A stretch of 31,694 nucleotides of DNA from a virus (Duplodnaviria; Heunggongvirae; Uroviricota; Caudoviricetes; Peduoviridae), in the IMG/VR virus record IMGVR_UViG_3300045988_104496, positions 1-31,694 of that record. One strand, written 5' to 3'. A program made the translations under genes and the position numbers. Positions within the stretch are counted from its first letter, which is position 1. Each line of letters opens with the position of its first letter. A model generated the notes under the pieces. The model searched no databases. It had not been told where the DNA came from and worked only from the letters and a program-made list of their open reading frames with translations. Below, one piece after another: positions 21,510 to 24,827 of this stretch.

Positions 21510-22874
21510 ATGATTAATTTAATTATGGGTGGTTTTCCCGACCACTACGACCACTGGAAACCATTCAGCCAAAATAATGGAGAATTCTCATTTCTTTTAT
21601 CACGAATGTTTGAAAACACCTCCGATGGTATTCGCAAAAAACTATCCCCATTAAGCAGCAATGTACTATCTTATCTTGAAAAACTCCCAACAATATTCAT
21701 GAGTGAAGCTTATCAAATAGAGGGAGCAAAACCTTATTATGTCGACATACGAATTGGAAGAATTTCAAATATTCACATTAAGGGAAAAGAAATCAACTTC
21801 CAATTTGCAATCACCCATACACACAATGAAATCAAAATATCAGACGCCAAAAGTGTTGAAAGCAGTTTAGAACTCGGAACTTATGGCCTTAAAAGAACAC
21901 ACTGGGCCATAAAAGACAAAAATATAGATGATATCCTTAAGACATTTGGTATTAACCAAAATGCACAAGTGGATAGCAGTCCAGCGCCTCTCCCAGACGA
22001 AGATAGCACATTATTAACCGTAAATAGTTTACAAGAATTTATTGAAAAAGTTCTCCATATAACAGCAGATATGGATGAGGAGATTTTTTACAGGGGTCAT
22101 TCAGATTCATCTTATGAACTTGCACCATCTCTTTTCAGAAAATATGAAAATGGGAACTATAAATTTCTACATAATGAAATCAACCTTGTTAAAGAAGCAT
22201 TGAGCGCAAGACCCTCAGAATTCATTGATGATACATCAATGCTTGATAAACTTGTAAGAATGCAACATTATGGCATACCTACTCGCTTACTTGACATCAC
22301 ATCAAATCCATTAATTGCACTTTATTTTGCATGCAGTAGTATAAATTCCGACAAAAACGATATCGATGGTCAAGTAATAATATTTAAAACACACAGAGAG
22401 AACATTAAATTTTTCGATTCCGACACTGTCAGTTGCATATCTAATTTATGCATGCTATCAAAAGACATGAAAGACAAGCTTTCTTTCGAAGAAAGAAATA
22501 ATGATTTTAACAACTCTCATGCTTGCCTTAAACTCTTAGAATCCATAAAGCATGAAAAACCATATTTTCAAAGCATAATAAATCCAGATGATTTGGAAAA
22601 GATAATTTTTGTAAAAAGCAGGATAAATAATGAAAGAATATCATCTCAATCCGGTGCCTTTTTATTATTCGGTAATAACGCCGTTTTTCCTGAGATATCC
22701 AACGATCAGGCAGATAATTCACCATACAACTTTAAGACAGAAAAAATAAACATCAGAGACAAAAAGAAAATTTTAAAAGAACTTGCCGTGCTCAATATTA
22801 CTGATGCCACTGTATATTTAGGATTGGAAAGAACAATGAAACTAATCACAGAAAAATACACATTAAAAAATTAG
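21510..22874 (+). CDS. FRG-domain protein, function unknown; candidate anti-phage cargo gene
   Basis: 454-aa ORF in a strongly AT-rich island. Contains the two FRG-domain signature blocks, EEIFYRGHSDSSYELAPSLFR and LVRMQHYGIPTRLLDITSNPLIALYFAC, recognised from memory of the Pfam FRG family. AGGT 6 nt before the ATG. Sits where P2 has old/tin. Confidence 0.65.
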   Translation: MINLIMGGFPDHYDHWKPFSQNNGEFSFLLSRMFENTSDGIRKKLSPLSSNVLSYLEKLPTIFMSEAYQIEGAKPYYVDIRIGRISNIHIKGKEINFQFAITHTHNEIKISDAKSVESSLELGTYGLKRTHWAIKDKNIDDILKTFGINQNAQVDSSPAPLPDEDSTLLTVNSLQEFIEKVLHITADMDEEIFYRGHSDSSYELAPSLFRKYENGNYKFLHNEINLVKEALSARPSEFIDDTSMLDKLVRMQHYGIPTRLLDITSNPLIALYFACSSINSDKNDIDGQVIIFKTHRENIKFFDSDTVSCISNLCMLSKDMKDKLSFEERNNDFNNSHACLKLLESIKHEKPYFQSIINPDDLEKIIFVKSRINNERISSQSGAFLLFGNNAVFPEISNDQADNSPYNFKTEKINIRDKKKILKELAVLNITDATVYLGLERTMKLITEKYTLKN

Positions 22875-22982: not shown

Positions 22983-23960
22983 TTAAAGTGCAGTACTTGC
23001 TTTTAATGTAAGCACCTTTGATCTATAACGTTGTTCAATTACCCCCATAGAATGCAATCGTCCAAATAACTTTTTGGCAGTATGAGTTTCTCTTGCACAC
23101 GCTGCATCCTTTATCATTTTCCAATATTCAATTTCTTGAGACATTAAAAGATGCTGCTTATTCCTGACTTTTAAAGAACCGCCCAAAACAATAACACCTG
23201 TTACCAACTTAGGCTTTTCTCTACTATAAATTTTTGTTTTATCCGCATGCATCACATGACCATGCTTATTTATTATTTTGCGAATCACTGAACAAAATAG
23301 TCTATTAACGTTTTGTCCTGAAAAAGTTAGATCATCAACATAAACAGACATATTTACGTGTAGTTTATTACAAAGTTGGTGTATTTCTCCGAACATTCTT
23401 GAATTTGCAAAATATGCAAGAGGCATACTAATCCTGCTACCTGTAGGCAAACGCCCATAGCAAGTACATATATACGATAATACATCCGCAACATCAGATG
23501 ACATCTTCATAACAGAAAAAAAGAATGAAAATATCATTTCTCTAGTAGTTGATGGAAAAAAAGCCCTGATGTCGGTTGTCATCAACCTTTCATTATTAAG
23601 GTGGATTTTAGCATTAGTAACATTAGAACATCCCTTCTTTCCAGAATGTAGATAATCTGGCAAGGTAATTCGCGATAGCAGACTTGCAATACGAGTATGC
23701 ACCACATCTAATTTTTCTAATGGTTTTTGTATCTTACGTGGCTTTCCGTTTTTAGATAACTGTTCAAAAATAGAATAATTGCCTTCATCTTTTTTTAAGG
23801 TTGATAAATCCCCTACATCAACCCCCAATAAAGAAGCCAATTTCCTTTTACTTCTCATTTTATAAAACGGCGAATCAATTATATCGTAAGATTTATTTTT
23901 AGTGGAAATTTTGAGTTTTATTCGTCTTTTCATTTTTCTTATTCGCCCACTCAATAACAT
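22983..23960 (-). CDS. Retron-type reverse transcriptase (start codon uncertain)
   Basis: Contains the retron RT hallmarks in order: NAxxH (VTNAKIHL), motif A (TDIRAFFPS), motif B-like LPTGSRISMPLAYFANS, catalytic YVDD (SVYVDDLTF) and the retron VTG motif (KLVTGVIV). Overall length and N-terminal pattern resemble Ec86-class RTs as I remember them. Alternative starts at 23933 (MKRRIK) or 23858 (MRSKRK); none has a strong Shine-Dalgarno. Confidence 0.8.
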   Translation of the reverse strand: MLLSGRIRKMKRRIKLKISTKNKSYDIIDSPFYKMRSKRKLASLLGVDVGDLSTLKKDEGNYSIFEQLSKNGKPRKIQKPLEKLDVVHTRIASLLSRITLPDYLHSGKKGCSNVTNAKIHLNNERLMTTDIRAFFPSTTREMIFSFFFSVMKMSSDVADVLSYICTCYGRLPTGSRISMPLAYFANSRMFGEIHQLCNKLHVNMSVYVDDLTFSGQNVNRLFCSVIRKIINKHGHVMHADKTKIYSREKPKLVTGVIVLGGSLKVRNKQHLLMSQEIEYWKMIKDAACARETHTAKKLFGRLHSMGVIEQRYRSKVLTLKASTAL

Positions 23961-24231
23961 CTAATACTTTACCAGCTAAATTTAAACGGAAACGCTTAGA
24001 TAAACGCCCCTGCGTACCTAACGATTCTGAAAAAAATACTAAAGAAGATACCGGCATATCGAAATGGGAGGCGTAACGCTGTAAAACATCAATTGTAGGC
24101 GACCAAACCCCACTTTCGAGTTCTACTATTTTTTCTTTTGGAATACCTAAAGATGTTGATAAATCAACCAATGACTCTTTATGGTATTGCCTTATTAAAC
24201 GAAGGGCTCTGTGTAACATAGGCAACTCCAT
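23899..24231 (-). CDS. XRE-family helix-turn-helix protein, directly upstream of the RT gene
   Basis: LHRALRLIRQYHKESLVDLSTSLGIPKEKIVELESGVWSPTIDVLQRYASHFDMPVSSL fits the Cro/C1-type HTH pattern. The likely true start is the second Met at 24219, which has GGAG 6 nt upstream. The 3' end overlaps the longest RT reading frame. Confidence 0.65.
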   Translation of the reverse strand: MELPMLHRALRLIRQYHKESLVDLSTSLGIPKEKIVELESGVWSPTIDVLQRYASHFDMPVSSLVFFSESLGTQGRLSKRFRLNLAGKVLDVIEWANKKNEKTNKTQNFH

Positions 24232-24255
24232 GCTATTGAAACTAGGGAGGACGCA

Positions 24256-24411
24256 TTACTCATCACCCCCTTCAAAGTAGTCCAGTGCTCGAGTGGCTAA
24301 ATCAAACAGTCTAATACCCCATTTGATTAATTTCCAAACATAACCAGCCCACTTTTTCAGGTTTGACTTGTTCTGCGCCTGCTGTTCGTTGGTTAATTTA
24401 TCATTCTTCAT
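24256..24411 (-). CDS. Small ORF (51 aa) with a consensus Shine-Dalgarno; hypothetical small protein
   Basis: AAGGAG, a 6-nt spacer, then ATG at 24411; encodes MKNDKLTNEQQAQNKSNLKKWAGYVWKLIKWGIRLFDLATRALDYFEGGDE with a Trp-rich amphipathic segment. The 3' arm of the upstream hairpin (CATAAG) abuts and partly overlaps the SD. Confidence 0.4.
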   Translation of the reverse strand: MKNDKLTNEQQAQNKSNLKKWAGYVWKLIKWGIRLFDLATRALDYFEGGDE

Positions 24412-24660
24412 GATTTGCTCCTTATGCCCATAGTGTGCAAACGATATGTCTGCTCCAACACTATGGTTCGCCCTCATAAGGATGAGATTGAACAGCACTA
24501 GCCCCCTGCTCCACGAACCCTTGGTCGCCCAAAGGGTTCGAATACCCATACGCCATACCGCCTGATCCTGTGACTCTTGTCGCTGGCAGGGGCGTTGCGC
24601 GGGGTAAATGTTAGAAAGCGTTAACTTTCCACGGGTAAAGTTACCCAATTGATGGCGATG
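24412..24660 (-). ncRNA. GC-rich structured leader; candidate retron msr-msd ncRNA (boundaries not determined)
   Basis: A GC-rich patch inside an AT-rich island. On the minus strand there is a long imperfect hairpin of about 15 bp at 24421..24480, a 9-bp stem cgaaccctt/aagggttcg at 24514..24540, and further short hairpins at about 24612..24650. The only ORF covering it needs a TTG start and has odd amino-acid composition. No convincing a1/a2 inverted repeat pair was found by eye. Confidence 0.35.
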
Positions 24661-24827
24661 TATCTCACTAACTAACCAATGTTTGCATCATAACAAGTAA
24701 ACCGTTGTATTTGATCTCCCTATATATAATATTTTTTTATATTAAATAAACAATTAATAAATATTAAACATAAAACATATTAAAGCGACCTCCTCTATGC
24801 CTTCATTGCATTGAATTTTAACGTTTT
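24661..24827 (-). promoter_or_regulatory. AT-rich putative promoter region for the ncRNA/small ORF/HTH/RT operon
   Basis: Minus strand reads TTGTTT, a 17-nt spacer, then ATTATA/TATATA around 24745..24715, followed by gggagatcaaat... Positioned between the A stop and the structured leader. By-eye promoter call only. Confidence 0.3.

What the first reader, a model, noticed from the sequence alone, without database searches (positions are those of the whole stretch)
24256..24411. Strong-RBS 51-codon small ORF gated by an upstream hairpin
A consensus AAGGAG with 6-nt spacing precedes the ATG, and the 3' arm of the long hairpin ends in CATAAG, overlapping the first bases of the SD. That suggests structure-controlled translation of a small Trp-rich amphipathic peptide (WAGYVWKLIKWGIRLF). 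It could be a small toxin or effector, or simply part of the ncRNA.
Basis: inference. Interest (0 to 1): 0.5.

Follow-up and report, generated by a model that had tools for sequence, protein, structure and literature searches.

The report
Type VI retron small toxin gene
The 51-codon ORF is a real, conserved gene: the small-protein (SP) effector of a type VI retron anti-phage system carried by a P2-like phage, embedded in the retron's structured RNA with its ribosome-binding site held in a conserved stem, a design described in 2025-2026 preprints, so this is a correct rediscovery rather than something new.

Summary
On the minus strand, AAGGAG (24423-24418), a 6-nt spacer, ATG (24411) and 51 codons end at TAA (24258-24256). 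A hairpin's 3' arm, CAUAAGGA (24426-24419), covers 5 of the 6 SD bases.

Context: P2 gpA, structured ncRNA, this ORF, HTH (PADLOC HTH_VI, 7e-30), RT (RT_VI, 1e-105). That is a type VI retron with SP-HTH-RT order, in Peduovirus P22H1 (100% identical) and 100 of 5,426 complete E. coli genomes.

The ORF is protein-coding. It sits at the same position (47-55 codons) in 19 loci whose RTs diverge to 53% identity. dN/dS is 0.08-0.70, and the start, SD and stop are conserved.

The ORF lies inside a hybrid RNA homologous to that of Retron-Vpa2 (covariance model, E about 2e-18 on the Vpa2 locus). The anti-SD:SD helix has compensatory changes in 7 of 8 pairs.

The likely mechanism, by homology only, is that SP translation is repressed until phage-triggered msDNA relieves it.

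Caveat: the predicted cost of opening the initiation site in this lineage (5.6 kcal/mol) is no higher than in shuffled controls. A Sen3-like model, with constitutive SP neutralised by HTH, is therefore not excluded.

Novelty is low: a new member of a known kind, possibly Retron-Eco12 itself.

The parts
24256..24411 (-). SP gene: 51 codons plus TAA; small-protein effector (toxin) of the type VI retron
   Evidence: ORF and translation. PGAP annotates it as WP_001754918.1 'hypothetical protein'. Hits PHROG 15287 at 3e-39. Conserved in frame in 19 loci with dN/dS 0.08-0.70.
24418..24423 (-). Shine-Dalgarno AAGGAG, 6 nt upstream of the ATG
   Evidence: Sequence. An AAGGAG/AAGGAA/GGAGG-type SD lies 5-9 nt upstream of the ATG in all loci.
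24419..24482 (-). Riboregulator hairpin: anti-SD arm UCCUUAUG (24482-24475), internal loop with repeat copy 2 GGGCGAA (24473-24467), variable inner hairpin (24466-24428), and SD arm CAUAAGGA (24426-24419)
   Evidence: Local fold dG -25.8 kcal/mol. The same design is seen in 18 loci. The outer helix has 7 of 8 pairs with changes on both sides and is 98.6% paired. Own arms pair 8/8 in 5 of 7 arm types (7.1/8 on average), against 4.3/8 for cross-locus arms.
24514..24540 (-). Hairpin CGAACCCUU-UGGGCGACC-AAGGGUUCG carrying repeat copy 1 (GGGCGAC, 24530-24524) in its loop. [quoted passage not shown]
   Evidence: The stem has 6 of 10 pairs with compensatory changes. It is the equivalent of the GGACGAA loop in the Vpa2 locus.
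24544..24605 (-). Long imperfect stem-loop whose apex varies in length; inferred main msd (reverse-transcription template)
   Evidence: MFE and consensus folds. Length-variable insert in the alignment. Same position as the long stem that yields the 63-nt msDNA in Vpa2.
24613..24646 (-). Two 5' stem-loops, SL1 (24646-24633) and SL2 (24630-24613); msr-like region
   Evidence: compensatory pairs in both; same layout in Vpa2.
24502..24513 (-). IR1, UGGAGCAGGGGG; long-range partner of IR2
   Evidence: Consensus fold helix 7: 12 pairs, 99% paired, no double changes within the close clade. By eye, the Vpa2 locus shows compensatory differences: UCGAGA with UUUCGA.
24237..24250 (-). IR2, CCUCCCUAGUUUCA, just downstream of the SP stop; it closes the hybrid RNA onto IR1
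   Evidence: Conserved although it is non-coding.
24490..24497 (-). ncRNA strand UGCUGUUC, which pairs with SP codons 9-11
   Evidence: Helix of 8 pairs, 100% paired; 2 pairs with double changes across the distant loci.
24374..24387 (-). SP codons 9-13 (GAACAGCA GGCGCA, encoding E-Q-Q-A-Q) that also serve as RNA helix strands. GAACAGCA pairs with 24497-24490, and GGCGCA pairs with UGCGUC at 24255-24250.
   Evidence: (pair 343-466 switches GC to AU in 3 sequences).
23899..24219 (-). HTH gene (106 aa from the PGAP start at 24219; the mechanical ORF starts at 24231)
   Evidence: PADLOC HTH_VI 7.2e-30; weak Pfam HTH_3 hit; PGAP coordinates.
22983..23933 (-). Retron reverse transcriptase (316 aa; YVDD motif intact)
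   Evidence: PADLOC RT_VI 1.1e-105; Pfam RVT_1; 54% identical to the RT of the Vpa2 locus.
24232..24670 (-). Inferred hybrid RNA (hyRNA): ncRNA, SP CDS and IR2, about 440 nt. The 5' end is set by where conservation begins, not by a mapped transcription start.
   Evidence: MFE -157.1 kcal/mol, z = -6.05. Conservation begins at about 24667. 114 consensus pairs are 97% paired, with 20 showing double changes against 10.8 +/- 2.1 in shuffles.

Best explanation
The ORF is the SP (small protein) effector gene of a type VI retron carried in the variable cargo locus of a P2-like phage (Peduovirus P22H1). The operon, on the minus strand, reads: structured ncRNA (msr/msd-like), SP, HTH, RT.

SP is transcribed as part of a ~440-nt hybrid RNA. 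An upstream pyrimidine tract (UCCUUAUG) pairs with the SD region (CAUAAGGA). SP codons 9-13 and the sequence just after the stop codon are also woven into helices with the ncRNA.

By homology with Retron-Vpa2, in uninfected cells the RT-HTH-hyRNA complex keeps SP translation low. Phage recombination or anti-RecBCD functions then let reverse-transcribed msDNA accumulate. That msDNA carries the complement of a short repeat (GGGCGA) that recurs in the riboregulator's internal loop. It is proposed to invade the hairpin, free the SD and allow synthesis of the amphipathic helical SP, which arrests the infected cell (abortive infection).

Shown here: the gene is real, it is conserved as a protein, it sits in a type VI retron, the RNA is homologous to the Vpa2 hyRNA, and the SD helix is under selection.

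Inferred by homology only: SP toxicity, msDNA-dependent derepression, the triggers, and anti-phage activity at this locus.
For: Retron identity: RT_VI 1.1e-105 and HTH_VI 7.2e-30, with SP-HTH-RT order.

The gene is real:
- Annotated by PGAP and a full-length match to PHROG 15287 at 3e-39.
- An ORF of 47-55 codons at the same position in 19 loci from Escherichia, Klebsiella, Enterobacter, Serratia, Kosakonia, Acerihabitans, Dickeya, Yersinia, Providencia, Vibrio, Aeromonas and Shewanella.
- dN/dS 0.08-0.70 with dS up to saturation; the only indel in the close clade is an in-frame loss of 3 codons.
- The in-frame upstream extension is not conserved.

Link to the characterised system:
- Locus L016 encodes a 55-aa SP with K15, I39, F43 and F45, matching the published Vpa2 SP.
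- hhalign of the SP family against it gives E = 1.8e-5. The second V. parahaemolyticus SP gives BLASTP 5e-11.
- A covariance model built only from the close clade hits L016 full length at 75.4 bits, E = 1.7e-18.

SD gate:
- The MFE pairs the SD with the upstream anti-SD in 15 of 18 loci.
- Seven different arm sequences co-vary.
- 7 of 8 pairs have double changes and 98.6% of cells are paired, against 36-44% in slid controls for the whole structure.

Repeat: both copies change together. GGGCGA in most loci, GGACGA in Vpa2, AGGCGA in Shewanella.

Published function of homologues: Vpa2 SP is toxic, translationally repressed and derepressed by msDNA. Sen3 SP is toxic and required for defence.
Against: No experiment exists for this locus; toxicity, translation, msDNA and defence are all extrapolated.

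Thermodynamic modelling does not predict a strong gate in this lineage:
- Opening the SD costs 1.6 kcal/mol. Opening -15..+6 costs 5.6 kcal/mol.
- Neither is above controls with a shuffled 5' part: 2.4 +/- 1.1 (29 of 40 at least as high) and 7.1 +/- 1.6 (26 of 30 at least as high).
- Vpa2 gives 9.6 and 10.8 kcal/mol, with 2 of 30 shuffles at least as high for the -15..+6 site.
- The mean unpaired probability of the SD in the window RNA is 0.51.

Within the close clade the anti-SD:SD helix never varies, so its covariation support comes only from more distant loci aligned to a model of this same structure.

The small hairpin over the start codon is not supported (72-81% paired).

Protein similarity to the Vpa2 SP is weak (hhalign probability 78%, C-terminal 29 residues only).

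In Retron-Sen3, another type VI retron, SP is made constitutively and controlled post-translationally by HTH, so the Vpa2 mechanism is not universal in the family.

Similarity between the flanks of the two repeat copies is only weakly locus-specific (8.2 against 6.9).
Confidence: 0.8

Rival explanations
1. Sen3-like control. SP is translated constitutively at a low level, the conserved helix only tunes expression or serves RT/HTH binding, and the real switch is post-translational: HTH acts as an antitoxin that neutralises SP until a phage (for example by inhibiting RecBCD) breaks that control.
For: This was demonstrated for Retron-Sen3, another SP-HTH-RT type VI retron. In the window RNA the predicted opening cost of the SD and initiation site is no higher than in shuffled controls, and the SD is about 50% unpaired in the ensemble. 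The SD is a strong consensus AAGGAG with ideal spacing. HTH immediately follows SP.
Against: The window RNA matches the Vpa2-type hyRNA, including the repeat pair proposed as the msDNA toehold. Compensatory evolution specifically preserves pairing of the SD arm. This SP is 51 aa, like Vpa2-type SPs, and lacks the ~25-residue N-terminal extension of the cl2075/Sen3 SPs. L002 and L003 share an identical HTH yet differ at 5 SP residues. The two models are not mutually exclusive.
Confidence: 0.3
2. Regulatory leader ORF. What matters is the act of translating the ORF, not the peptide. Ribosomes unzip the helices that tie codons 9-13 and the post-stop IR2 to the ncRNA, thereby controlling reverse transcription or HTH/RT expression.
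For: Codons 9-13 and the sequence after the stop are strands of conserved helices. The N-terminal codons are nearly invariant even at synonymous sites.
Against: There is amino-acid-level purifying selection across the whole ORF, with a conserved amphipathic helix and C-terminal [ED]GG[DE] motif maintained through many nucleotide changes. Homologous peptides are toxic on their own, and point mutations in the hydrophobic helix reduce toxicity.
Confidence: 0.07
3. Not a gene. The ORF is a chance open frame inside a purely non-coding retron RNA.
For: No Pfam, NCBIfam or PADLOC family matches. Strong RNA structure overlaps the ORF.
Against: The frame, start, stop and SD are conserved in 19 loci although dS is saturated; dN/dS is below 1; the indel is in frame. 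A profile search finds a coherent family of 47-55-aa proteins. There is experimental evidence for homologues.
Confidence: 0.02
4. The true product is the 130-aa protein annotated in the RefSeq phage record (gp41, TTG start at 24648), with the 51 codons as its C-terminus.
For: The frame is open for 92 codons upstream in the window, and the phage record annotates the 393-nt ORF.
Against: In 9 loci an in-frame stop lies 3-21 codons upstream of the ATG, 7 of them with no alternative start. The upstream region carries indels that are not multiples of three and evolves as RNA helices with compensatory changes. PGAP calls the 51-aa ORF in all E. coli genomes inspected.
Confidence: 0.01

Closest known systems
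Retron-Vpa2 SP and hybrid RNA (type VI retron, Vibrio parahaemolyticus; Zhang et al., bioRxiv 10.1101/2025.10.22.683967)
   Same: SP-HTH-RT order. The small ORF follows the msr/msd-like RNA on one structured RNA of ~440-470 nt. The SD lies in a stem opposite a pyrimidine arm. A short direct repeat occurs in an msd hairpin loop and in the riboregulator loop. An inverted repeat after the stop codon folds back onto the ncRNA. The SP is ~50 aa with a hydrophobic or amphipathic C-terminal helix and a C-terminal [DE]GGD[ET]. The covariance model from this clade hits the Vpa2 locus at E about 2e-18.
   Different: The RT is only 54% identical. The SP is 51 rather than 55 aa, with weak sequence similarity. 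The repeat is GGGCGA(C/A), identical over 6 nt, rather than the 7-nt GGACGAA. The predicted initiation-site opening cost is about half that of Vpa2. The host is a P2-like coliphage rather than a Vibrio chromosome. Nothing has been tested experimentally here.
Retron-Eco12 (E. coli type VI retron tested by Zhang et al.)
   Same: An E. coli type VI retron related to Vpa2. It defends against lambda-vir and gives no detectable msDNA at baseline. This window could be that very system or a close variant.
   Different: No sequence or accession for Eco12 is available in the held text or supplements, so identity could not be tested. E. coli carries at least three sequence classes of this locus: >=99%, ~84% and ~78% identity.
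Retron-Sen3 SP (cl2075 clade; Garcia-Rodriguez et al., bioRxiv 10.64898/2026.04.27.721009)
   Same: SP-HTH-RT type VI retron. The SP is a small helical toxin. The SP RBS is predicted to lie within an ncRNA stem. [quoted passage not shown]
   Different: The Sen3 SP is 79 aa with a ~25-residue N-terminal extension. In Sen3, SP and ssDNA are made constitutively and control is post-translational, through HTH and RecBCD surveillance. The window's SP is 51 aa and its RNA matches the Vpa2-type model.
Type I toxin-antitoxin mRNAs (hok/sok-type), from general knowledge
   Same: A small toxic peptide whose SD is sequestered by long-range mRNA folding and whose translation needs an RNA rearrangement.
   Different: No antisense RNA antitoxin is evident. 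The activator here would be reverse-transcribed DNA. The peptide is amphipathic and not a predicted transmembrane helix. There is no sequence relationship.

Membership tests
Type VI retron (Mestre et al. 2020 classification) | Reverse transcriptase of the type VI clade | tested here: met
   PADLOC RT_VI 1.1e-105, far above the other retron types, whose best hit is 5e-45. YVDD motif present.
Type VI retron (Mestre et al. 2020 classification) | Cro/C1-type HTH gene immediately upstream of, or overlapping, the RT gene | tested here: met
   PADLOC HTH_VI 7.2e-30. HTH spans 24219-23899 and overlaps the RT start at 23933.
Type VI retron (Mestre et al. 2020 classification) | Small accessory protein upstream of HTH (SP-HTH-RT arrangement; present in a subset) | tested here: met
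   A 51-aa ORF lies 36 nt upstream of the HTH start, with the same arrangement in 19 loci.
Type VI retron (Mestre et al. 2020 classification) | RT-dependent msDNA/ssDNA production and anti-phage defence | not testable with these tools
   Needs wet-lab assays; shown only for the homologues Vpa2, Eco12 and Sen3.
Vpa2-type hybrid RNA (hyRNA) | RNA homologous in sequence and structure to the Vpa2 hyRNA | tested here: met
   Model R1, built without Vpa2, hits the Vpa2 locus L016 full length at 75.4 bits, E = 1.7e-18. It also hits 7 other distant loci and finds nothing in an unrelated RT locus. The SL1/SL2/long stem/repeat-hairpin layout is the same.
Vpa2-type hybrid RNA (hyRNA) | SP RBS (and start codon) sequestered in stem-loops | tested here: inconclusive
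   The SD helix is strongly supported by covariation: 7 of 8 pairs with double changes, and own arms pair better than cross-locus arms. The start-codon hairpin is not supported. The predicted opening energy in this lineage is not above shuffled controls.
Vpa2-type hybrid RNA (hyRNA) | Conserved short direct repeat, one copy in an msd loop and one in the riboregulator loop | tested here: met
   GGGCGAC lies in the hairpin loop (24530-24524) and GGGCGAA in the riboregulator internal loop (24473-24467). The two copies co-change across loci, but only 6 nt are identical here, against 7 in Vpa2.
Vpa2-type hybrid RNA (hyRNA) | The 3' end folds back onto the ncRNA through inverted repeats (IR after the SP stop) | tested here: met
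   IR1 (24513-24502) pairs with IR2 (24250-24237): 12 pairs, 99% paired. The support is conservation rather than covariation within the close clade.
Vpa2-type hybrid RNA (hyRNA) | ncRNA and SP CDS on one abundant contiguous transcript | not testable with these tools
   Needs RNA-seq or end mapping. The consensus scan found no promoter or terminator between them on the retron strand.
Type VI retron SP toxin family (Vpa2/Eco12-like) | Sequence homology to the characterised Vpa2 SP | tested here: met
   hhalign of the family profile against the Vpa2 SP gives E = 1.8e-5, probability 78%, over the C-terminal 29 residues. The link via the second V. parahaemolyticus SP is BLASTP 5e-11. The profile search recovers Vibrio SPs. 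The direct similarity is weak.
Type VI retron SP toxin family (Vpa2/Eco12-like) | C-terminal helix with a conserved hydrophobic core required for toxicity | tested here: met
   Amphipathic helix over residues ~18-46 with conserved W26, I33, R34 and L35. Toxicity itself was not tested.
Type VI retron SP toxin family (Vpa2/Eco12-like) | Intrinsic toxicity of the peptide | not testable with these tools
   Shown for the Vpa2 and Sen3 SPs only.
cl2075 (Sen3-type) SP | About 79-aa SP with a ~25-residue N-terminal extension ahead of the shared helical core | tested here: not met
   This SP is 51 aa, and the upstream extension of the frame is not conserved. Even the Y. enterocolitica relative has 51 aa.
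Type I toxin-antitoxin (hok/sok-like) | Hydrophobic transmembrane toxin plus a cis-encoded antisense RNA antitoxin | tested here: not met
   Mean Kyte-Doolittle hydropathy stays below 1 in all 11-residue windows, and charged residues occur throughout the helix. No match to any Rfam family. An antisense RNA was not specifically sought.

The most novel reading that the evidence does not exclude
In this P2-phage-borne lineage the two published type VI models may operate together. The conserved but thermodynamically weak SD helix would give a leaky, bistable gate, since the anti-SD segment can alternatively pair with the AUG region. Basal SP would then be buffered by HTH, while msDNA invasion at the GGGCGA loop tips the RNA to the open state. 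Once translation starts, ribosomes would unzip the helices formed by SP codons 9-13 and IR2, dismantling the RT template scaffold and making the switch irreversible. In that reading the invariant EQQAQ motif is dual-coded, serving as both peptide and RNA helix.
Probability: 0.2. Interest if true: 0.55.

Novelty: new member of a known kind. Interest (0 to 1): 0.3.

Why it matters
The work assigns a function to a gene annotated as 'hypothetical protein' in about 100 complete E. coli genomes and placed in a PHROG of unknown function. It also corrects the RefSeq record of Peduovirus P22H1, where the gene is over-extended to 130 aa.

It shows that the Vpa2-type hybrid RNA design (small toxin gene, SD-sequestering helix, repeat pair) extends to P2-like phages of Enterobacterales. 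It provides independent covariation evidence for the SD helix.

The weak predicted gate in this clade, compared with Vpa2, bears on an open question: whether type VI retrons control SP translationally, post-translationally, or both.

It is not a new kind of system.

Tried and rejected
- Rfam (gathering thresholds) found nothing anywhere in the window; no curated family exists for this RNA.
- Pfam, NCBIfam and PADLOC have no model for the SP.
- A single-sequence scan of genome contigs with the RT found nothing. An alignment-based scan gave only 3 loci, so most comparative loci came from exact-protein look-ups.
- A MAFFT alignment of riboregulator hairpins across clades (A5) lost the register of the arms. 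I abandoned it for structure-anchored counting and a covariance-model alignment.
- Identity with Retron-Eco12 could not be established, because no sequence or accession is in the held papers or supplements.
- The Vpa2 RT accession WP_069548583.1 was not among the accessions listed for either V. parahaemolyticus cluster. I instead identified the Vpa2 locus from the published SP length and residues K15/I39/F43/F45.
- I tried to place the locus relative to the cl2075/Sen3 clade through a Y. enterocolitica RT. That locus turned out to carry the same 51-aa SP family, so the relation to cl2075 remains unresolved.
- Odegrip et al. 2006 (RT in the P2 variable locus) is not held and remains only a lead.
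- Opening-energy calculations do not discriminate the window RNA from shuffled controls. I report this as evidence against a strong RNA-only gate.
- The flank similarity of the two repeat copies is only weakly locus-specific.
- The consensus promoter scan found no convincing promoter for the hyRNA. The 5' end is inferred from where conservation begins.
- I did not run a fold search on the AlphaFold model, because a single helix would give meaningless matches.
Full report
OBSERVATION. The feature lies on the minus strand. Reading that strand, GGGCATAAGGAGCAAATCATG places AAGGAG at 24423-24418, a 6-nt spacer, and ATG at 24411-24409. The ORF has 51 sense codons and ends at TAA 24258-24256. The peptide is MKNDKLTNEQQAQNKSNLKKWAGYVWKLIKWGIRLFDLATRALDYFEGGDE. 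The exact pattern AAGGAG-N6-ATG occurs twice in the window against 0.23 expected. The hairpin just upstream is real: -24.1 kcal/mol, z = -4.2. Its outer 3' arm, CAUAAGGA (24426-24419), pairs with UCCUUAUG (24482-24475) and covers five of the six SD bases.

CONTEXT. On the same strand the order is: P2 replication gene A (27158-24828; Pfam Phage_GPA, 7e-123), an AT-rich gap, a ~250-nt structured region, the small ORF, an HTH gene (24219-23899) and a reverse transcriptase (23933-22983). PADLOC assigns the RT to RT_VI (1.1e-105) and the HTH to HTH_VI (7.2e-30). This is a type VI retron with the SP-HTH-RT arrangement. The 1.9-kb region is 100% identical to Peduovirus P22H1. It occurs in 100 of 5,426 complete E. 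coli genomes, in three sequence classes (>=99%, ~84%, ~78% identity), almost always between the P2 portal and gpA genes. That position is the variable cargo locus of P2-like phages, which is known to hold defence systems including retrons (PMC9122126). PGAP already annotates the 51-aa ORF as a hypothetical protein (WP_001754918.1). It matches PHROG 15287, 'unknown function', at 3e-39. No Pfam, NCBIfam, PADLOC or Rfam family covers the ORF or the RNA.

IS IT A GENE? I collected 19 loci: the window, E. coli variants, Klebsiella, Enterobacter, Serratia, Kosakonia, Acerihabitans, an Enterobacteriaceae MAG, Dickeya, Yersinia, Providencia, two Vibrio parahaemolyticus, V. splendidus, Aeromonas and Shewanella. 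Their RTs are 53-100% identical to the window's RT. Every locus has an ORF of 47-55 codons at the same position, with an SD 5-9 nt upstream. In the 11 closer loci, Nei-Gojobori dN/dS is 0.08-0.70 (mostly 0.2-0.45) while dS reaches saturation. The only indel is an in-frame loss of three codons. Invariant residues include M1, K2, D4, T7, E9-Q13, K19, K20, W26, K30, I33, R34 and the C-terminal E47-G48-G49. An exhaustive profile search of 1.84 billion representatives finds only 13 clusters. All are ~50-aa proteins (or over-extended calls of them) with the same [ED]QQ...hydrophobic helix...[ED]GG[DE] layout, and several are from Vibrio. The long 130-aa frame annotated in the RefSeq phage record is not conserved. 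In nine loci an in-frame stop lies 3-21 codons upstream of the ATG, and the upstream region has indels that are not multiples of three. The 51-codon ORF is therefore a genuine protein-coding gene. The peptide has a polar N-terminal half and a strongly amphipathic C-terminal half (hydrophobic moment up to 0.8, three Trp, net charge +2) and is not transmembrane-like. AlphaFold2 predicts one long helix.

WHAT IS KNOWN. Two preprints describe exactly this component. Zhang et al. (10.1101/2025.10.22.683967) studied Retron-Vpa2. They show that the msr-msd and the SP coding sequence form one ~470-nt 'hybrid RNA', that the SP RBS and AUG lie in stem-loops, and that SP alone is toxic. They show that deleting the non-coding part or mutating HTH is toxic. 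msDNA is undetectable at baseline but accumulates on triggering (lambda Red, RecBCD inhibition), and msDNA, even supplied in trans, derepresses SP translation. They propose that a conserved 7-nt direct repeat acts as a toehold, with one copy in an msd loop and the other in the riboregulator loop. They also tested an E. coli relative, Retron-Eco12. Garcia-Rodriguez et al. (10.64898/2026.04.27.721009) studied Retron-Sen3 of the cl2075 clade, whose SP is 79 aa. There the SP and ssDNA are constitutive, HTH neutralises SP post-translationally, and RecBCD inhibition is the trigger. The SP RBS is again predicted to lie in an ncRNA stem, and an IR1-IR2 pairing brackets the SP gene.

DIRECT COMPARISON WITH Vpa2. 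Locus L016 is a V. parahaemolyticus type VI retron whose RT is 54% identical to the window's. It encodes a 55-aa SP with K15, I39, F43 and F45, exactly the published length and mutated residues of the Vpa2 SP, so L016 is Vpa2 or a locus whose SP matches it in all those features. The window's SP family aligns to it at hhalign E = 1.8e-5 over the C-terminal 29 residues, and to the SP of the second V. parahaemolyticus retron at BLASTP 5e-11.

At the RNA level, the inferred 439-nt RNA (24670-24232) folds at -157.1 kcal/mol, z = -6.05. The RNAalifold consensus over 11 loci has 114 pairs that are 97% paired. Twenty pairs show changes on both sides, against 10.8 +/- 2.1 in shuffles and 2-6 in slid registers. 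Its elements are:
- Two 5' stem-loops.
- A long stem with a length-variable apex (24605-24544).
- A hairpin with GGGCGAC in its loop (24540-24514).
- IR1 (24513-24502), pairing with IR2 (24250-24237) just after the SP stop.
- UGCUGUUC (24497-24490), pairing with SP codons 9-11 (GAACAGCA).
- GGCGCA (codons 12-13), pairing with UGCGUC after the stop. One pair here switches GC to AU together with a synonymous codon change.
- The anti-SD:SD helix.

A covariance model built from the close clade only (177 positions, from the hairpin through codon 13) hits all eight distant loci full length at the expected place. The Vpa2 locus scores 75.4 bits, E = 1.7e-18, and an unrelated RT locus gives no hit. 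The window and Vpa2 ncRNAs have the same SL1/SL2/long-stem/repeat-hairpin layout. By analogy with Vpa2's 63- and 86-nt msDNA, I infer that 24605-24514 (~92 nt) is the reverse-transcription template.

THE GATE. Within the close clade the anti-SD:SD helix never varies, which says nothing either way. Across the wider set the hairpin keeps one design: a pyrimidine arm, an internal loop with G(G/A)CGAA, a variable inner hairpin, and an arm running into the SD. The arm sequences differ, for example UCCUUAUG/CAUAAGGA, UUUUCCUAUA/UAUAGGAGAA, CUCUGUAAUU/GAUUACGGAG, UCUCUGAUUG/CAAUUGGAGA and CUCCA.AUUAC/GUAA.CUGGAG. Own arms pair 8/8 in five of seven arm types, against 4.3/8 for arms swapped between loci and 3.3-4.0/8 for slid registers. 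On the model-guided alignment, 7 of the 8 pairs have changes on both sides and 98.6% of cells pair; that alignment leans towards the structure, but slid controls give 36-44%. The helix is therefore under selection. The MFE pairs the SD with this arm in 15 of 18 loci. The two repeat copies change together: GGGCGA in most loci, GGACGA in Vpa2, AGGCGA in Shewanella. That fits the toehold idea, although flank similarity is only weakly locus-specific. The small hairpin over the AUG is not supported.

CAVEAT. Energetically the gate looks weak in this lineage. Opening the 9-nt SD window costs 1.6 kcal/mol and opening -15..+6 costs 5.6 kcal/mol. Neither exceeds controls in which the 5' part is shuffled: 2.4 +/- 1.1 (29 of 40 at least as high) and 7.1 +/- 1.6 (26 of 30 at least as high). 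Vpa2 gives 9.6 and 10.8 kcal/mol, with 2 of 30 shuffles at least as high. The SD is about half unpaired in the window's ensemble, partly because the anti-SD segment can alternatively pair with the AUG region. RNA folding alone may therefore not suffice. Binding by RT and HTH (shown for Vpa2) or a Sen3-like antitoxin role of HTH may contribute.

MECHANISM AND CONFIDENCE. That the ORF is the translated SP effector gene of a type VI retron, embedded in a Vpa2-type hybrid RNA with a selected SD-pairing helix, I hold at about 0.8. That translation here is derepressed by msDNA, as in Vpa2, is inference by homology, at about 0.5. A Sen3-like post-translational control as the main switch is at about 0.3, and the two are not exclusive. 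Readings in which the ORF is not a gene, is only a leader, or is the 130-aa protein are unlikely (0.02, 0.07, 0.01).

NOVELTY. This particular locus is unannotated or mis-annotated in public records, and I could not check it against Retron-Eco12. I rate it a new member of a known kind, which would become 'already known' if it proves identical to Eco12, with low-to-moderate interest (0.3).

Noticed in passing
window 21510-22874 (+): A divergently oriented 454-aa FRG-domain protein sits next to the retron in the same P2 cargo locus (Pfam FRG 2.4e-21; PADLOC candidate system PDC-S15 7e-98; PHROG 4962, unknown function). An FRG gene also flanks the retron in Kosakonia (L014), but other neighbours replace it in O157 and other E. 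coli variants (L002-L005). It looks like a separate candidate defence gene.
   Followed up: partly
window 24256-24648 (-); NC_049386.1 gp41 (L022 3066-3458): The RefSeq record of Peduovirus P22H1 annotates a 130-aa ORF from a TTG start that runs through the retron ncRNA. Comparative data show that only the last 51 codons are conserved as a frame. In the same record the HTH is 'hypothetical protein' and the RT is 'polymerase', so the retron is not recognised.
   Followed up: yes
L003 2768-2923 (-) versus window 24256-24411: The SP of E. coli O139:H1 W13-16 differs from the window's by 7 nonsynonymous and 0 synonymous changes (W21R, V25A, K27E, I29F, A39V, F46L, D50G). Its HTH is identical to that of the O157 variant L002, which differs from it at 5 SP residues. 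This may reflect accelerated or adaptive change, or attenuation of the toxin in that lineage.
   Followed up: partly
L006 (E. coli C5, near yeiP), L011, L017 (Dickeya): A subclade of the same retron sits outside P2 prophages, for example next to a YkgJ-family gene near yeiP/yeiQ. In it the SD-to-ATG spacer is 9 nt, through a 3-nt insertion (GTCGAC-ATG). The retron module therefore moves independently of the phage.
   Followed up: partly
window 24219-24231 (-): The mechanical ORF for HTH starts at ATG 24231. PGAP and the conserved GGAG RBS favour ATG 24219 (106 aa). The GGAG lies only a few nucleotides downstream of IR2.
   Followed up: partly
window 24374-24387 (-), SP codons 9-13: The invariant E-Q-Q-A-Q motif is encoded by nucleotides that are also strands of two conserved helices, one with the ncRNA and one with the post-stop sequence. 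Synonymous sites there are almost frozen, a case of overlapping protein and RNA constraint.
   Followed up: yes
window 24395-24480 (-): In the isolated hairpin, the anti-SD segment can alternatively pair with the start-codon region (UUAUGA with UCAUGA). This suggests two competing closed states rather than one; no covariation supports the alternative.
   Followed up: partly
P0017 (50 aa, from the representative search): A metagenomic variant reads MLEQTYRLHTMGIREQIMKNDKLTNEQQAQNKSNLKKVGWLRLEINQMGY. It matches the family only through residue ~21 of the SP and then diverges, as expected from a frameshifted (possibly inactivated) copy.
   Followed up: no
L019 2907-3059 (-): In the Aeromonas locus a hok/gef-family toxin gene lies about 450 nt downstream of the retron RT, so two small-toxin modules sit side by side.
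   Followed up: no
whole window: The window is essentially a P2-like phage genome (Peduovirus P22H1 is 32,662 bp) with tail, baseplate, lysis, capsid and portal genes. In one E. coli genome (L001) an ISEc12 transposase lies just beyond the FRG gene.
   Followed up: partly
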